IMG/VR virus record: IMGVR_UViG_3300020045_005319
Span: 1-37,809 of that record
Length of the DNA stretch: 37,809 bases
Strand: one strand, 5' to 3'
Source: a virus
Lineage: Duplodnaviria; Caudoviricetes
Positions 4,607-28,138 of the stretch are shown here, one piece after another. Numbering within the stretch: position 1 is the first letter of the stretch; each line of letters opens with the position of its first letter. Below the pieces are notes generated by a model. The model was not told where the DNA came from. It did no database searches and saw nothing but the letters and a program-made list of their open reading frames with translations. A program made the position numbers and the translations under genes.

Positions 4607-4637
4607 AAAATCGATGCAGAAATGTATCGATTTTTTT
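4607..4637 (+). terminator. Intrinsic terminator after the tail tube gene
   Basis: AAAATCGATGCA-GAAA-TGTATCGATTTTTTT. Confidence 0.85.
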
Positions 4638-4667
4638 GTTTTAATTAAAAATAAACATTATGTTTGC
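4637..4667 (+). promoter_or_regulatory. Bacteroidota-type promoter with TAAACATTA box (copy A)
   Basis: TATGTTTG -7 element at 4659-4666, overlapped by TAAACATTA at 4652-4660. Confidence 0.7.
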
Positions 4668-4670
4668 AAA

Positions 4671-4748
4671 CGTAAATCGCTAGTAGGTAGCAATTAGATT
4701 TGGGGAAATCTTAAAAACCGATATATTTTATGTATATCGGTTTTTTTT
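4671..4748 (+). ncRNA. Candidate small RNA (~78 nt, three hairpins)
   Basis: Lies between promoter A and terminator AAAACCGATATA..TATATCGGTTTTTTTT; hairpins AATCGCTA/TAGCAATT and AGATTT-GGGG-AAATCT; no ORF. Confidence 0.5.
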
Positions 4749-5078: not shown

Positions 5079-5221
5079 CGCCAGAACAATTAATTTTTCT
5101 GGCACATTTTTCAAACACATCGTTAAACATTTTATTTGAAATGGACGGAAACGATGTTCATTATTGGTTTGTTGAAGCGTTGAAATTACACGAAAAAATG
5201 AATCCGCCTTCAGAAACATAA
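5072..5221 (+). CDS. -1 frameshift extension of the tail chaperone (gpE+E'-like), 49 aa CVTPEQLIFLAHFSNTSLNILFEMDGNDVHYWFVEALKLHEKMNPPSET
   Basis: The -1 frame is open from the CTTTTTG site (5067-5073) to TAA 5219-5221; E'-like M...W...A pattern; missing from the ORF track. Confidence 0.8.
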   Translation, partial: CVTPEQLIFLAHFSNTSLNILFEMDGNDVHYWFVEALKLHEKMNPPSET

Positions 5222-5251
5222 AACCGCACCGATAACGGTTGCGGTTTTTTT
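5220..5251 (+). terminator. Terminator-like hairpin before the tape measure gene
   Basis: AAAACCGCACCG-ATAA-CGGTTGCGGTTTTTTT. Confidence 0.75.
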
Positions 5252-5264
5252 ATATAAATTAATT

Positions 5265-6944
5265 ATGGCAAAAAAAACATTTGAAGTTGCATTACTCTTA
5301 ACAGCCAAGGATGAAGCGACACGAATTATCGCTGCCGCTGCTGCTAGACAACGCCAAATTATGGCAATGTCGGAGCGTGGAGATAGAGCTTTTGCAACAG
5401 GCAGAACAGCAGGCGCAATCGGGTTAAGTATCGGGGCTGCTTTGGCTTTACCATTGAAGGCAGCTGCTGACATGGAAAGTATGAACATCGCTTTGCAAAC
5501 TTCATTCCAAGGAAACCAAAAAGAAGCGAAAGCTGCATTCGATGCAATAAACAAATTTGCTGCAAAAACTCCTTACGGTTTAGAGGAAGTAATGACTGGG
5601 TTCATTAAATTGAAAAATATGGGCCTTGACCCATCCGAACAAGCTTTGACCGCATATGGTAACACGGCTTCGGCAATGGGTAAATCATTGAATGATATGG
5701 TTGAAGCGGTTGCTGATGCTGCAACAGGGGAATTTGAACGTTTGAAAGAGTTTGGTATAAAAGCTAAATCAGAAGGTGAAAACGTAACCTTCATGTTCCA
5801 AGGCGTAAAAACTACTGTTGGCAAAAATTCCAAAGAAATAGAACAGTACTTGAAATACATTGGAAATGTAAAATTTGCAGGAGGTATTGAGGCACAATCT
5901 AAATCTGTTAAGGGTATGATGTCTACTTTGAAAGACGGTGTTATAATGACTGCTTCAAAGATCGGAACTACACTTTTACCAAGGCTAAAAGAATTGATAA
6001 ATCAGGTTACGCCTGTGATTGATAGAATATCTGCATGGGTAAGTAGAAATCCAAGATTAACTGAAGGCATTTTAAAAGCTGCTGCTGGAGCCATGGCTTT
6101 GAGTTTAGCTGTATCGGCAGCTTCTTTTGCATTTGGAGGTATTTTTAAAGTGATTTCGGCAGGAATGGCAGTTATGAATACCTACAAAACAATTATGATT
6201 ACCGTGACAGCAGTACAGAACGCTATGGCATTTTCTGCTTTAGCAGGGGGTTCGGCAATGCAAATATTAACAGCTGCATTGAGTGCTGCTAACTTGGCAT
6301 TTTTGACTTCCCCGATATTTTGGATAGTTGCTGCTATTGCTGTTGCCGCATTCTTGATTATAAAATATTGGGACCCGATTAAGAAGTTTTTTGCTAATTT
6401 ATGGACTAATATAAAAGCTATTTTCTGGAAAGCAATAGATTTTGTAAAAGAATGGGGTTTATTGTTTCTTGGTCCAATTGGATGGGTTATAAAAGCGTGG
6501 CAAATGGTTCCTGATAAATTTAAAAATATTGGAGCCGATATAATAAACGGTCTTTGGAATGGAATAAAAGATAAAGCAGCCGCATTATTTGATTTTGTGA
6601 AAGGAATCGGTAAAGGCATTGCAACGGCTTTCAAAACAGTCCTTGGAATCGCATCACCTTCAAAAGTATTTATGGATTACGGGGTAAATATAACCGAAGG
6701 AGCTCACAACGGAATCAAGAAAGGGCAGGATAAAGTCGTGGGAGCTTCCCGAAATATGGGGGGTGCTATTAAACCAACTGCAAGCCGTGGCGGTGGAGGT
6801 GGTAATTCATCGGTTTCAGTTACGTTTGCGCCTGTAATTAATGGCGGTTCTGGTGATGTAGCAGGACAAGTAAAAGCGTTGATTCCTGAATTGATTAGAC
6901 AAATTGAGGCTCAGATGCAAAGAAAAGCAAGATTAGCTTATTAA
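5265..6944 (+). CDS. Tail tape measure protein
   Basis: FAAKTPYGLEEV, AVADAATGEFERLKEFGI, periodic Trp/Phe amphipathic repeats, LGIASPSKVF. Confidence 0.95.
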   Translation: MAKKTFEVALLLTAKDEATRIIAAAAARQRQIMAMSERGDRAFATGRTAGAIGLSIGAALALPLKAAADMESMNIALQTSFQGNQKEAKAAFDAINKFAAKTPYGLEEVMTGFIKLKNMGLDPSEQALTAYGNTASAMGKSLNDMVEAVADAATGEFERLKEFGIKAKSEGENVTFMFQGVKTTVGKNSKEIEQYLKYIGNVKFAGGIEAQSKSVKGMMSTLKDGVIMTASKIGTTLLPRLKELINQVTPVIDRISAWVSRNPRLTEGILKAAAGAMALSLAVSAASFAFGGIFKVISAGMAVMNTYKTIMITVTAVQNAMAFSALAGGSAMQILTAALSAANLAFLTSPIFWIVAAIAVAAFLIIKYWDPIKKFFANLWTNIKAIFWKAIDFVKEWGLLFLGPIGWVIKAWQMVPDKFKNIGADIINGLWNGIKDKAAALFDFVKGIGKGIATAFKTVLGIASPSKVFMDYGVNITEGAHNGIKKGQDKVVGASRNMGGAIKPTASRGGGGGNSSVSVTFAPVINGGSGDVAGQVKALIPELIRQIEAQMQRKARLAY

Positions 6945-6948
6945 AATT

Positions 6949-6978
6949 TGTTTAATTAAAAATAAACACTATATTTGC
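6949..6978 (+). promoter_or_regulatory. Bacteroidota-type promoter with TAAACACTA box (copy B)
   Basis: TGTTTAATTAAAAATAAACAC followed by TATATTTG at 6970-6977. Confidence 0.75.
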
Positions 6979-6981
6979 GTA

Positions 6982-7222
6982 TAATTAATGTGAAAGATTG
7001 ACCCACACGTAAACAGGCGTATTGAAAATACGTAACTTGCACAGGACGGTTATAGCACTGTGTGGCATTAATTAAATAAAAAAAAAGAACTCGATAAATA
7101 GAGAGCAACCGTAAAGACGCTGTAGTTTAGTGAACATGGAAGGCTTAGATATTCGAGTACCATTCTCATGTAAGACTAAATTCTTTTTGTAAAACCGTGT
7201 TGTATATAGCACGGTTTTTTTT
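6982..7222 (+). ncRNA. Candidate structured ncRNA (~240 nt, two domains plus terminator)
   Basis: Starts at the predicted +1 of promoter B; stems 6982-6990/7066-7074, 7003-7008/7060-7065, 7017-7023/7027-7033, 7082-7089/7181-7188, 7126-7131/7175-7180, 7134-7138/7167-7171; terminator 7191-7222. Confidence 0.6.
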
Positions 7223-7246
7223 ATTATATTTACAAAAATAATTTTT

Positions 7247-7366
7247 ATGAAAAAATTAATTATATCGGTATTTTTTCAAGTAGGCGTGAATGTAATCGGG
7301 ATTCCTGAAATAATCAAACATGACTTATCGAAAACGGTTATTCATAAATCAATTTTTCACACATAA
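7247..7366 (+). CDS. Small hypothetical protein, 39 aa (MKKLIISVFFQVGVNVIGIPEIIKHDLSKTVIHKSIFHT)
   Basis: AT-rich leader; stop overlaps the next start (TAATG); missing from the ORF track. Confidence 0.5.
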   Translation: MKKLIISVFFQVGVNVIGIPEIIKHDLSKTVIHKSIFHT

Positions 7367-8223
7367 TGTACGCCCAATTAGGAAATATACGTTTCGAAGG
7401 ATTGAAAGGCTTTTCAAATTTCTCGCATGAGCGTGGTGTAAACTACGCCCAACACGACTTAATAAACGGAAAGCCTCGCTTGCAGTCCGTTGGCGACAAC
7501 TTAGATAGTATTTCATTTGGAATGTATTTACATTCTGAATTTACCAATCCTGAAGCTGACATTGAAACATTACGTCTTGCAATGCAGAATCGTGAAGTTT
7601 TGCCTTTGCTTCTCGGAAATGGTCGTATTTTAGGGTTTTTTGTGATTCCTAGTTTTTCGCAATCCAATTCGTTCACTGATCCGTTGGGAAATTTGATTGA
7701 AGTAACTTTAAATATTGAATTACTGGAAAGTTTTTCAGATGACCCTTTGAGAGAAGCGGAATTACAGGCTATAAATTTAGCCTTTGCAACTTCACAAAGA
7801 AATTCAAATGTGCGTTCGGTTTTGCCTCCAAAGTTGTCACAGGGAATGACTATAAGTACCGAGATTTCAAATATTCAAACATCGGCAACGGTAACGAATA
7901 TTTACACAGCAAATATAGCCGCAGTTCCGGGCCGTTCAGAATATTGGAGCGGAAAAATAAGTAAATCACTTACTGATATTGAAAAAAGTTTAACAACGGT
8001 TCAATCTACGCTGTCAGATGCTTCACAGTTGCAAGATTTAGCCGAAGATATGCCAGTAGCTTTGAATGATGTTTATGTGCGAGTTCAGAACATGAAAGCG
8101 GTTTTACCTGTTACAGACATTGAAGGTTTTAAAATTTTAAACCAACAATTAAACGGTTCGGTTGTAAATTTGAATTCAACAAACTTAGATATTTCCAATA
8201 ACTCTATAATCCGTAGAATATAA
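7366..8223 (+). CDS. Tail tube initiator (P2 gpU-like) with C-terminal extension
   Basis: MYAQLGNIRF...YAQHDLINGKPRLQSVGDNLDSI...PLLLGNGRILGFFVI. Confidence 0.88.
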   Translation: MYAQLGNIRFEGLKGFSNFSHERGVNYAQHDLINGKPRLQSVGDNLDSISFGMYLHSEFTNPEADIETLRLAMQNREVLPLLLGNGRILGFFVIPSFSQSNSFTDPLGNLIEVTLNIELLESFSDDPLREAELQAINLAFATSQRNSNVRSVLPPKLSQGMTISTEISNIQTSATVTNIYTANIAAVPGRSEYWSGKISKSLTDIEKSLTTVQSTLSDASQLQDLAEDMPVALNDVYVRVQNMKAVLPVTDIEGFKILNQQLNGSVVNLNSTNLDISNNSIIRRI

Positions 8224-10935: not shown

Positions 10936-11412
10936 ATGAGTACACTAACGGAGAGACAGAATTTAATAAATGCATTAATAGACAATAATACGGGTCTCAT
11001 AAAACCTAAAATGGTGCGTGAGGCTTTGACAGCTTTAAACCTAGCTATTGTCGTAACCGAACCTTCTGGAGTTACAGCGGTTTTGCCATTATTATACGAT
11101 AATTTCACAAATCAATTTTCAATCAGTCCGGCTACGGAATTACAGGACGGTTACCTGAAAAAAGAGGATTGGATAAAATTTAACACCTCCTCTACTGCGC
11201 CACAAGCAGATAAAATAACAATCAAGCACAAAGGTTGGTTTAATAGCGTAAAAAACACAGGTGAAAATATCGAACTTGGTGACATTTGCGAAGGTTGGAA
11301 TGCTGACTATACTGAATTTATGGAAGCGGGAAGATATATTATCTTAGCGGGCGACCAAGATACAGCTAACTATGAAATATTGTCATCTTACGGAGTGGCT
11401 TTAATTCCGTAA
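10936..11412 (+). CDS. Hypothetical structural/fibre-associated protein
   Basis: ATELQDGYLKKEDWIKFN resembles spacer motifs of phage fibres; lies in the tail region. Confidence 0.5.
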   Translation: MSTLTERQNLINALIDNNTGLIKPKMVREALTALNLAIVVTEPSGVTAVLPLLYDNFTNQFSISPATELQDGYLKKEDWIKFNTSSTAPQADKITIKHKGWFNSVKNTGENIELGDICEGWNADYTEFMEAGRYIILAGDQDTANYEILSSYGVALIP

Positions 11413-25811: not shown

Positions 25812-27110
25812 ATGAAAAAGTACAACAGAAACAAGAATGTTCACGAAGCTTCCTTAGAAAGGATTGAATATATTTTTAATAACTTCAATAAGATATACAT
25901 ATCGTTTTCTGGAGGAAAAGACAGCGGTGTAATGATCAATTTAATGATTGATTATATGCGTAAAAATAACATCACTAAGAAAGTAGGCGTTATGATTTTA
26001 GACAACGAGGCTAATTACAACCTTTCTTTAGAATTCATGCACAGAATAATCGAAGCTAATTTAGATTTACTAGACGTGTACTGGTGCTGCTTGCCTATTA
26101 CCTTGCCGTGTACCGTTTCTTCTTACGCTACAGAATGGCAATGCTGGGGTGTTAATGATGAAAAGAGGTGGATTAGCCCTATGCCGAAACAGAAGTATAT
26201 CGTTAACATGAAAAATAAACCTTTCGACTTCTTTGAAGAAAATATGCCTTACGACGAGTTTTGGGACAAATTCGGGGAATGGTATTCACAAGGCGAAAAA
26301 TGCGCTTGCTTAATTGGTATCAGATGCGACGAAAGTCTTAATAGGTTCCGTGCGATAATGAATGATAGAAAAGAAATGTTAGACGGACACCACTGGACAA
26401 AAAGAAACGGTGAATTTGTATATAACTGCTATCCTATTTATGACTGGAAAACAAGAGATATATGGGTAGCTAACGCAAAATTTGAATGGGATTATAATAA
26501 GCTTTACGATATATTTTGGAAAGCTGGTCTTACTATCGCTCAAATGAGGGTTGCCAGTCCTTTTATGAGCGAAAGCAAGTCGTCTTTAAACTTATATAGA
26601 GTTATAGATTCAGGTATTTGGTCAACTTTGTGCGCTAGAGTTCATGGGGCTAATTTTGTGGCTACTTATGGAAAACAAATAAACTACAATAGTTTTAAAT
26701 TACCAGAAGGACATACGTGGAAAAGCTTTGTAAAATTTTTATTAGATACTTTACCAAAGGAGGTTTCTGAAAATTTTAAGATGCGCTTCATTCAATCCTT
26801 CAAATACTGGGGCAGGGTGGGGCGCGGACTGGATGGAAAAACAATTTCAGAACTCAGAAAAAATAATATTTCATTTAAAATAAATGGAAAAACAGCCCAT
26901 GGCTCAAAAGAAAAGTACAGAGTTGTCATTCAATCCTTCCCTGATCACTTGGATATGTTGAAATGTCATAATAGCGATGTAGCTTCGTGGAAGCGTTTTG
27001 CGATAACTATATTAAAAAACGATCATACCTGCAAATATATGGGGCTATCTCCAACTAAAAGTCAAGCTATTAGACAGCGCGAAATAATGCAGAAATATAA
27101 AGGCTTATGA
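25812..27110 (+). CDS. PAPS-reductase-fold (PP-loop) protein with DUF3440, IbrA/YbdN-like
   Basis: SFSGGKDS, LIGIRCDESLNR, YPIYDWKTRDIW, MRVASPF, SWKRFAITILKND. Confidence 0.9.
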   Translation: MKKYNRNKNVHEASLERIEYIFNNFNKIYISFSGGKDSGVMINLMIDYMRKNNITKKVGVMILDNEANYNLSLEFMHRIIEANLDLLDVYWCCLPITLPCTVSSYATEWQCWGVNDEKRWISPMPKQKYIVNMKNKPFDFFEENMPYDEFWDKFGEWYSQGEKCACLIGIRCDESLNRFRAIMNDRKEMLDGHHWTKRNGEFVYNCYPIYDWKTRDIWVANAKFEWDYNKLYDIFWKAGLTIAQMRVASPFMSESKSSLNLYRVIDSGIWSTLCARVHGANFVATYGKQINYNSFKLPEGHTWKSFVKFLLDTLPKEVSENFKMRFIQSFKYWGRVGRGLDGKTISELRKNNISFKINGKTAHGSKEKYRVVIQSFPDHLDMLKCHNSDVASWKRFAITILKNDHTCKYMGLSPTKSQAIRQREIMQKYKGL

Positions 27111-27707: not shown

Positions 27708-27749
27708 TGTTTATCCAAAAATAAACATTATATTTGCTTATTATTAATT
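27708..27749 (+). promoter_or_regulatory. Promoter with dyad TGTTTAT-N6-ATAAACA (copy E), driving ectC-like and parB-like genes
   Basis: TGTTTATCCAAAAATAAACATTATATTTGCTTATTATTAATT; near-identical to 34134-34175. Confidence 0.8.
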
Positions 27750-27763
27750 TAAAACCTATCAAA

Positions 27764-28138
27764 ATGAAAATTGTAAACATTAAAGAATTAGAAGGAACAG
27801 ACAGAGACGTTTTATTCACAGGCGGTAATAGTGTCCGTGCCTTAGTGAAAAGTGATAACATGGGATTCGGAGTGTGCAAAACATATATTCCAGAAGGAGG
27901 ACCGCACCATTGGCATTACCTTAATCATTTGGAGGCATGTTACTGTATTTCAGGGTCAGGAATTTTGACAAATATAGAAACAAAGGAGGAACATTATATT
28001 AAAAAAGACGTAATGTATGTGCTGGATAAACACGATAATCATACTTTTGAAGCTTTGGAAGACGTTGTTTTGATTTCAATATTCAACCCGCCATTGACGG
28101 GAACTGAGTTTCATGATGAAAACGGGAATTACTTGTAA
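27764..28138 (+). CDS. ectC: Ectoine synthase family cupin (solitary EctC)
   Basis: Start reassigned to ATG 27764; GTDRDV, D.MGF, HY.NHLEA.YC..G.G, Y.LDKHD.H, FNPPLTG.E.HDE.G.Y signature. Confidence 0.9.
   Translation: MKIVNIKELEGTDRDVLFTGGNSVRALVKSDNMGFGVCKTYIPEGGPHHWHYLNHLEACYCISGSGILTNIETKEEHYIKKDVMYVLDKHDNHTFEALEDVVLISIFNPPLTGTEFHDENGNYL

What the first reader, a model, noticed from the sequence alone, without database searches (positions are those of the whole stretch)
6982..7222. About 240-nt two-domain structured ncRNA candidate inside the tail operon
Seen: the predicted +1 of promoter B coincides with the first base of a 9-bp closing stem (TAATTAATG/CATTAATTA) around a branched domain (CCACAC/GTGTGG; GCGTATT-GAA-AATACGT). 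An A-tract linker leads to a second domain closed by AAAAAGAA/TTCTTTTT with a long irregular hairpin (TTTAGT/ACTAAA, ACATG/CATGT, GAA/TTC, GG/CC), then a terminator. Two possible pseudoknots: ACTCGA 7089-7094 with TCGAGT 7153-7158, and ACGGTT 7046-7051 with AACCGT 7107-7112. It is more GC-rich than the other intergenic DNA and has no convincing ORF. Known: tape measure and gpU are normally adjacent. Inference: an independently transcribed functional RNA that I cannot assign to a family, such as an anti-defence decoy, antitoxin mimic or ribozyme.
Basis: partly seen in the sequence, partly recalled or inferred. Interest (0 to 1): 0.72.

Follow-up and report, generated by a model that had tools for sequence, protein, structure and literature searches.

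The report
Orphan phage RNA in accessory-gene slot
Between two tail genes of an uncultured, likely Flavobacterium-infecting phage, a swappable slot that relatives fill with extra genes holds a promoter-to-terminator unit with no convincing protein gene, which likely makes a folded RNA of about 240 bases that would act as a decoy against a host defence; no relative of the RNA was found, so its fold and its job are predictions.

Summary
The unit is real; its fold and function are unproven. A host-type promoter box (6970-6977) puts +1 at 6982. The tape-measure/gpU gap is a cassette slot. Of 40 distinct relatives, 17 are empty, 13 hold promoter-ORF-terminator cargo, 7 hold short ORF-less units and 3 hold both. 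The terminator predates the insert. The window's 213-nt ORF-less cargo is the longest such unit found. All listed helices exist. Without the terminator the fold is no more stable than shuffles (z -1.2), but seven compatible helices (P 0.001) and an open loop-loop pair, 7046-51/7107-12 (3 of 400 shuffles), are unusual, both measured post hoc. The second 'pseudoknot' is better read as a competing fold. No Rfam hit and no homologue in any collection searched, so covariation is untested. Best guess (0.35): a trans-acting folded decoy RNA. Boldest lead (0.07): domain 1 pairs weakly with a type II-C tracrRNA. The scan reported similar ORF-less cassettes and kissing-loop leaders on other DNA, not this sequence.

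The parts
5265..6944 (+). Tape measure protein gene; its mRNA would run through the insert to the shared terminator
   Evidence: PHROG 28, E 9e-44; the terminator lies downstream of the insert
6945..6981 (+). Cassette promoter: TTTG at 6947-6950 (the -33 element, recalled) and TAnnTTTG box at 6970-6977
   Evidence: Similar blocks at 4635, 27702 and 34133; same offset in 11 relatives; consensus and spacing from PMC9723704
6982..7074 (+). Predicted domain 1: closing stem 6982-6991/7065-7074, hairpin 7017-7033, hairpin 7038-7064 with an open 13-nt loop holding 7046-7051
   Evidence: Pair probabilities 0.95, 0.92 and 0.75; z -1.0 alone
7075..7081 (+). Single-stranded A-rich linker
   Evidence: Unpaired probability 0.88-1.0
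7082..7188 (+). Predicted domain 2: closing helix 7082-7089/7181-7188, weak region with 7107-7112, long irregular hairpin 7124-7182; alternative fold through 7089-7094/7153-7158
   Evidence: z -1.0 alone
7046..7112 (+). Predicted loop-loop pairing 7046-7051 with 7107-7112 that would join the two domains
   Evidence: Both strands mostly unpaired; duplex -7.8 kcal/mol; 3 of 400 shuffles show such a pair
7002..7077 (+). Stretch with weak colinear complementarity to a type II-C tracrRNA; 7060-7096 also loosely resembles the CRISPR repeat
   Evidence: post hoc; P from 0.006 to 0.28 depending on test
7191..7222 (+). Intrinsic terminator, older than the insert
   Evidence: z -4.9; near-identical hairpin just after the tape-measure gene in L045 and L046, and about 45 nt after it in L043
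7225..7366 (+). Promoter-like box (7225-7232) and conserved 39-codon ORF (7247-7366) ahead of gpU; not part of the RNA
7366..8223 (+). gpU-like tail gene
   Evidence: PF06995; PHROG 788

Best explanation
A promoter-to-terminator insert without a convincing ORF fills a hypervariable accessory-gene slot between the tape-measure and gpU genes; it is predicted to make a two-domain RNA of about 240 nt that likely works in trans as a folded decoy, binding and occupying an RNA-binding host defence protein. Shown: promoter box, slot variability, lack of an ORF, older terminator. Predicted: transcription by the host housekeeping sigma factor from 6982, two domains, and the 7046/7107 loop-loop contact. 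Inferred only: action in trans, a protein partner, and that the partner is a defence protein.
For: Slot: 40 distinct relatives with gpU at least 50% identical; by my reading 17 empty, 13 ORF cargo, 7 ORF-less units, 3 both. This is the accessory-cassette logic of PeSL-bounded regions (PMC4122927, abstract). Cis action is unlikely: no gene lies between the RNA and the terminator, an antiterminator fold costs 11.6 kcal/mol, and gpU has its own promoter-like box. It is not an mRNA: the ATG at 7136 is buried, and the 56-codon antisense frame has no homologue. Structure signals. Base-pairing to the phage's own start regions is no better than chance (best of 53 start regions P 0.39-0.9 for four exposed segments), which leans towards a shape-based role. 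Precedents for shape decoys: pseudo-ToxI (PMC5086642, passages); rAcrVIA1 as described in 10.64898/2026.06.03.729762 (passages).
Against: No homologue was found, so there is no covariation and no sign of selection. The folding energy without the terminator is ordinary, and the helix-count signal fades at 7 bp or more. Both domains have near-equal alternative folds. The closing-stem arms look like ordinary cassette leaders. Ten slot-cargo ORFs of relatives were tested against Pfam (one hit, YopX) and PADLOC (none), so the slot is not shown to be an anti-defence site. No defence partner was identified. No transcript data.
Confidence: 0.35

Rival explanations
1. Relic cassette: a regulatory leader (kissing-loop attenuator type) or a small ORF whose coding part has decayed or been deleted; transcribed but without function.
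For: Domain 2 has a hexamer at the tip of a long hairpin followed by a U-rich run, complementary to an upstream hexamer, like the 3' half of kissing-loop leaders in four relatives. 7066-7087 resembles ORF-cassette leaders. A + frame from 7094 to 7192 has only one internal stop. G+C equals coding DNA. It is a singleton.
Against: It fails the leader descriptor: no 5' hairpin with the partner in its loop, and no ORF behind. tblastx to fetched loci gave nothing convincing (best E 0.03). One stop in about 32 codons is common by chance (my estimate, about 1 in 3). The promoter and terminator are intact.
Confidence: 0.25
2. A trans-acting base-pairing sRNA that silences host or rival-phage mRNAs through its 25-nt single strand (6992-7016) or its loops, like a FopS-type sRNA and probably like the 40-60-nt units of relatives.
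For: Ten of 40 relatives carry short ORF-less units in this slot; by eye some read antisense to start-codon-like sequence (L155, L156, L020). 6992-7016 is mostly unpaired.
Against: No start-region target in its own genome. No long complementary match in relatives or in the bacterial genomes searched. It is four times longer than the short units. Short-seed host targets could not be tested.
Confidence: 0.2
3. RNA anti-CRISPR that pairs with the host type II-C tracrRNA (anti-repeat, nexus and 3' hairpins), blocking crRNA maturation and Cas9 loading.
For: 7002-7077 aligns colinearly with the reverse complement of the tracrRNA of G059 (L223) and G1163 (L225). Duplex energy ranks in the best 0.6% and 2.9% of 900 G+C-matched host windows. 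Shuffle P is 0.016-0.03 for L223. One of 48 spacers matches the phage family over 17-18 nt.
Against: Found post hoc among many comparisons. After paying for the RNA's own fold the ranks fall to 5.7% and 18%. Alignment P is 0.06-0.28. nhmmer with tracrRNA or repeat finds nothing in the family, window included. The spacer matches only 21-22 of 30. These genomes are not known hosts.
Confidence: 0.07
4. Leader of the 18-codon peptide at 7136-7192.
For: The ORF ends at the terminator, as cargo ORFs do; an alternative fold exists.
Against: Its ATG is paired at 0.99 or more, and its start context is G-rich unlike the phage's genes. The leader would be 154 nt, against about 16-30 nt in 10 of 11 relatives.
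Confidence: 0.05
5. Cis antiterminator controlling read-through from the tape-measure gene into gpU.
For: 7046-7051 can pair with the terminator's 5' arm (P 0.02), and 7051-7061 repeats its 3' arm at 10 of 11.
Against: The antiterminator fold is 11.6 kcal/mol worse. gpU has its own promoter-like box, and all 40 relatives manage without the insert.
Confidence: 0.04
6. Self-cleaving ribozyme or type III antitoxin mimic.
For: Length and a possible pseudoknot-like contact.
Against: No Rfam hit. Recalled catalytic-core motifs are absent on the + strand, apart from one loose one-mismatch twister-like 8-mer. No tandem repeats, whereas type III antitoxins are 34-36-nt repeats (PMC5086642).
Confidence: 0.04

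Closest known systems
PeSL-bounded accessory cassettes of T4-like phages (PMC4122927, abstract; PMC2839356, search listing)
   Same: Promoter-terminator units mark a variable site where unrelated cargo is swapped between close relatives.
   Different: Here the site lies among tail genes of a small Bacteroidota myophage, uses a TAnnTTTG promoter, and the cargo is non-coding. Recombination at the motif was not tested.
Shape-mimic anti-defence RNAs: pseudo-ToxI of phage TE (PMC5086642, passages); rAcrVIA1 (as described in 10.64898/2026.06.03.729762, passages)
   Same: Independently transcribed phage or mobile-element ncRNA proposed to act through its fold.
   Different: No repeats, no identified partner, no sequence or model match. 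The likeness is by logic only.
vsgRNA, vscaRNA and rAcrIIA1 (10.64898/2026.06.01.729453: part 1, section 10 and passages; 10.64898/2026.06.03.729762: abstract and passages)
   Same: Phage RNA with its own promoter and terminator; loose likeness to a II-C repeat at 7060-7096.
   Different: Those are about 90-111 nt, carry a sense tracrRNA tail (vsgRNA, rAcrIIA1) and lie near Acr genes. This RNA is about 240 nt, is if anything antisense to the tracrRNA, and has no Acr neighbour identified.
Kissing-loop leader RNAs of Flavobacterium phages
   Same: A hexamer at the tip of a long hairpin before a U-rich run pairs with an upstream hexamer.
   Different: The partner is 107 nt from +1 and not in a 5' hairpin loop; no gene follows; an extra 93-nt domain precedes it.
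FopS sRNAs of Bacteroides thetaiotaomicron (PMC11697453, abstract)
   Same: Bacteroidota trans-acting ncRNA; a model for the short ORF-less units of relatives.
   Different: No Rfam match; no start-region target found.
ROOL and GOLLD ornate RNAs (PMC12286853, search listing; PMC5737381, passages)
   Same: Phage-associated ncRNAs of unknown function, with loop-loop contacts.
   Different: Much larger (recalled), widespread and supported by covariation; no Rfam match here.

Membership tests
Any Rfam 15 family | Score at or above the gathering threshold | tested here: not met
   0 hits in the window; best E 0.77 in 6900-7400, all far below cut-offs
Accessory (moron/PeSL-like) cassette | Own promoter and terminator around the cargo | tested here: met
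Accessory (moron/PeSL-like) cassette | Cargo absent or replaced in close relatives | tested here: met
   0 of 40 distinct relatives carry it; 23 carry other cargo
Accessory (moron/PeSL-like) cassette | Exchange by recombination at the promoter-terminator motif | not tested
   Only inferred from shared boundaries
Structured ncRNA | Covariation among homologues | not testable with these tools
   No homologue found
Structured ncRNA | Fold beyond chance | tested here: inconclusive
   Energy z -1.2 without terminator; helix set P 0.001 at 6 bp, 0.09 at 7 bp; open loop pair 3 of 400
Structured ncRNA | Discrete transcript | not testable with these tools
   No read data could be laid on the locus
vsgRNA / rAcrIIA1 | Repeat:anti-repeat stem followed by a sense tracrRNA tail | tested here: not met
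   Sense alignment to two II-C tracrRNAs P 0.56 and 0.99; nhmmer none. Only one repeat type was available.
vscaRNA / Racr (solitary repeat) | A CRISPR-repeat-like unit able to pair with the tracrRNA | tested here: inconclusive
   7060-7096 against one repeat: P 0.02-0.05, 0.12 for the second; the segment is buried in predicted stems
vsgRNA / vscaRNA | Acr or Aca gene nearby | not tested
   Neighbours are tail genes and a 39-codon ORF without a Pfam or PADLOC hit; no Acr library was searched
Type III antitoxin / pseudo-ToxI | Tandem repeats of about 34-36 nt | tested here: not met
   Best internal repeat 13 of 20; longest direct repeat 11 nt
Known self-cleaving ribozymes | Family model match or catalytic core motifs (motifs recalled) | tested here: not met
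Known self-cleaving ribozymes | Self-cleavage | not testable with these tools
   Needs an in vitro assay
Kissing-loop leader (scan notes) | 5' hairpin at +1 whose loop pairs with the terminator tip | tested here: not met
   The descriptor finds L014, L228, L240 and L243 but not the window
Kissing-loop leader (scan notes) | Tip hexamer of a long hairpin before a U-run pairs upstream | tested here: met
   7153-7158 with 7089-7094
Kissing-loop leader (scan notes) | A gene follows the leader | tested here: not met
   The strong terminator follows at 7191
tRNA / tmRNA | ARAGORN or Rfam call | tested here: not met
   0 genes; a T-loop-like heptamer at 7152 lacks its stem

The most novel reading that the evidence does not exclude
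The RNA is an anti-CRISPR of a new type: its first domain opens and base-pairs along the host's type II-C tracrRNA, removing it from Cas9, rather than mimicking a guide. The tail-gene slots of this phage family would then be exchange sites for a battery of RNA-only counter-defence genes.
Probability: 0.07. Interest if true: 0.9.

Novelty: new variant of a known kind. Interest (0 to 1): 0.45.

Why it matters
If the RNA is made and folded, it adds an uncatalogued ncRNA to a phage family whose cassette slots treat RNA genes as swappable cargo alongside protein genes; 10 of 40 relatives have ORF-less units in this one slot. The slot gives a clean test bed: the same promoter and terminator with different cargo. 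RNA-only counter-defence is a young field, and the vsgRNA preprint had no word match for Bacteroid or Flavobacter. An RNA that silences Cas9 by pairing with the tracrRNA did not come up in my search. If instead it is a relic, it is ordinary phage mosaicism.

Tried and rejected
Homologue searches, all negative. Four pattern scans of IMG/VR gave 0, 6, 7 and 27 hits, all unrelated on inspection. blastn of GenBank phages and plasmids gave only short matches. 92 whole-record searches of related viral contigs (90 distinct) gave 3 records with matches of 24 nt or less; 8 metagenome loci were not searchable whole. Bacteroidota genomes matched in 0 of 2, 2 of 401, 1 of 281, 2 of 264 and 11 of 391; all lay at the A-rich linker except a 42-nt, 86% match in G362 without context, which I take as chance. 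A one-sequence covariance model found nothing in 1.07 Mb and 0.20 Mb of loci, and 1 of 30 records at E 0.013, inside what reads as an integrase gene. Sequencing runs: none was listed; this is no evidence on expression. Fremin 2023 viral candidate RNAs (PMC10690425; abstract and supplement list read): six motif terms were absent from the four readable tables, but the two alignment zips and three oversized files could not be searched, so prior listing there is not excluded. bioRxiv supplements (vsgRNA tables) were not seen. A covariance model of the four kissing-loop leaders was abandoned because the alignment was poor. Searches for more Bacteroidota tracrRNAs in phages and plasmids gave none usable. 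No prophage closer than 56% (sheath) was found, so the host is inferred. Literature searches without a description of this RNA.

Full report
Setting. The window is one IMG/VR virus record with a lambda-like head, a contractile P2-like tail, and recombination and replication genes. The host is inferred to be Flavobacterium-like: TAnnTTTG promoters recur, and 78 of 184 phage records matching the RecT-like protein are Flavobacterium phages. No close prophage was found.

The unit. The gap 6945-7365 holds a promoter (box 6970-6977), about 210 nt without a + strand ATG ORF of 25 codons or more, a strong terminator (7191-7222), a second promoter-like box (7225-7232) and a 39-codon ORF before gpU.

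The slot. I collected relatives by gpU, sheath, tape-measure and primase proteins. Among 40 distinct gaps from relatives with gpU at least 50% identical (classes are my reading), 17 have no insert, 13 have ORF cargo, 7 have only ORF-less promoter-terminator units, and 3 have both. One ORF-less case, L012, has a second unit with an ATG frame running through its terminator. Eleven relatives have the same promoter at the same offset; in 10 an ATG ORF starts 53-67 nt after the tape-measure stop, where the window has none. The window's terminator is nearly the same as the one after the tape-measure gene in L043, L045 and L046, so the promoter and body were inserted ahead of an older terminator. The body is the longest ORF-less unit in my catalogue of 30 descriptor hits, several of which are false positives (213 nt; next 179, which lies antisense within a gene, and 130). 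The unit is therefore accessory cargo between separately punctuated tail genes.

The fold. All helices listed are present. The evidence for selection on the fold is mixed. Against: z -1.2 without the terminator and -1.0 per domain (12% of shuffles as stable). Both domains have alternatives within 1.4 and 2.2 kcal/mol. The closing-stem arms are self-complementary A/T motifs that resemble ordinary cassette leaders. For: seven non-overlapping perfect helices total 46 bp against 21+-8 (P 0.001), above all 251 sliding windows in z though 8 reach the raw value; P rises to 0.035 when both closing stems are trimmed and to 0.09 at a 7-bp minimum. The 7046-51/7107-12 pair has both strands open, as in 3 of 400 shuffles. 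These statistics were chosen after seeing the sequence. The 7089/7153 pairing forms first during transcription (prefix ending at 7160) and is displaced by the long hairpin, so it is best read as an alternative fold.

Family searches. Rfam: none. tRNA and tmRNA: none. No homologue by patterns, blastn, nhmmer or a one-sequence covariance model in the phage, plasmid, viral-contig and Bacteroidota genome sets examined. Many close relatives exist in collections whose DNA I could not fetch, and the tools may leave out near-identical records, so 'orphan' means not found in those searched.

Mechanisms tested. Peptide leader: ATG buried, poor start context. Antisense ORF: no homologue. Decayed cargo gene: no convincing tblastx match. 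Antiterminator: 11.6 kcal/mol uphill, although a 6-bp match to the terminator arm has P 0.02. Ribozyme and type III antitoxin mimic: defining features absent. Antisense to its own start regions: chance level. Kissing-loop leader: I noticed the design in L014, then found it in earlier scan notes and in three more relatives. Domain 2 shares only the 3' half, which keeps the relic reading alive. CRISPR: I fetched three cas1 regions from Flavo-1-rich genomes, likely Flavobacterium; two gave a II-C repeat and tracrRNA. The RNA is not sgRNA-like. However, 7002-7077 is colinearly complementary to the tracrRNA: whole-RNA duplex P 0.016-0.045 for L223 and 0.05-0.10 for L225; domain 1 ranks 0.6% and 2.9% among 900 matched windows, and 5.7% and 18% after self-folding. 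nhmmer sees nothing. This is a lead, not a result.

Verdict. A non-coding transcription unit is likely (about 0.8, my estimate), and a selected structure is about even odds. I commit to a trans-acting folded decoy against a host RNA-binding defence protein at 0.35, by elimination and by precedent, with no partner identified. Relic 0.25, base-pairing sRNA 0.2, tracrRNA sponge 0.07, the rest 0.13. It belongs to no catalogued family tested. Prior listing in unread supplements (PMC10690425 alignment files, bioRxiv tables) cannot be excluded. Earlier scan notes hold nothing on this sequence. Interest 0.45.

Noticed in passing
window 4659-4748 (+); L049, L007/L060, L009/L051: Second ORF-less promoter-terminator unit between the tail tube and chaperone genes, about 75 nt, kept at about 90% identity in three other distinct relatives. 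No Rfam hit; no start-region target in the phage.
   Followed up: partly
L073, L162, L168, L169 (tape-measure/gpU slot): A small family of ORF-less units with a variable 5' part and a shared 3' part holding a G-run before the terminator.
   Followed up: partly
L155:292-390, L156:1160-1240, L020:1592-1690: Short ORF-less units that by eye read antisense to translation-start-like sequence; no matching target in fetched loci.
   Followed up: partly
L167:5506-5600: ORF-less unit forming a long A/U hairpin with a Shine-Dalgarno-like loop, odd in a phylum that mostly lacks such sites.
   Followed up: no
L014:1319-1400 (+), L228:2073-2160 (-), L240:2109-2210 (-), L243:6740-6822 (-): Four kissing-loop leaders with four different pairing hexamers; no Rfam hit for L014.
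   Followed up: partly
window 7247-7366 (+): 39-codon ORF just before gpU, kept in many relatives down to L045 and absent in others; no Pfam or PADLOC hit.
   Followed up: partly
L009 / L050, tube-chaperone gap: tRNA-like insert with an enlarged central part behind a promoter-like box; no Rfam hit at gathering score.
   Followed up: no
L012:3260-3430: 130-nt ORF-less promoter-terminator unit in another slot.
   Followed up: no
window 27734-28138 and 25812-27110: Ectoine synthase-like gene behind a cassette promoter (Pfam E 2e-40), and a PAPS-reductase/DndC-like gene.
   Followed up: no
window 10955-10971; L225 array: One of 48 CRISPR spacers from G1163/G059 matches the phage family over 17-18 nt but only 21-22 of 30 overall.
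   Followed up: partly
window 5079-5222: A conserved reading frame follows the chaperone stop in relatives, consistent with a frameshifted chaperone extension (G/GT type, recalled).
   Followed up: no
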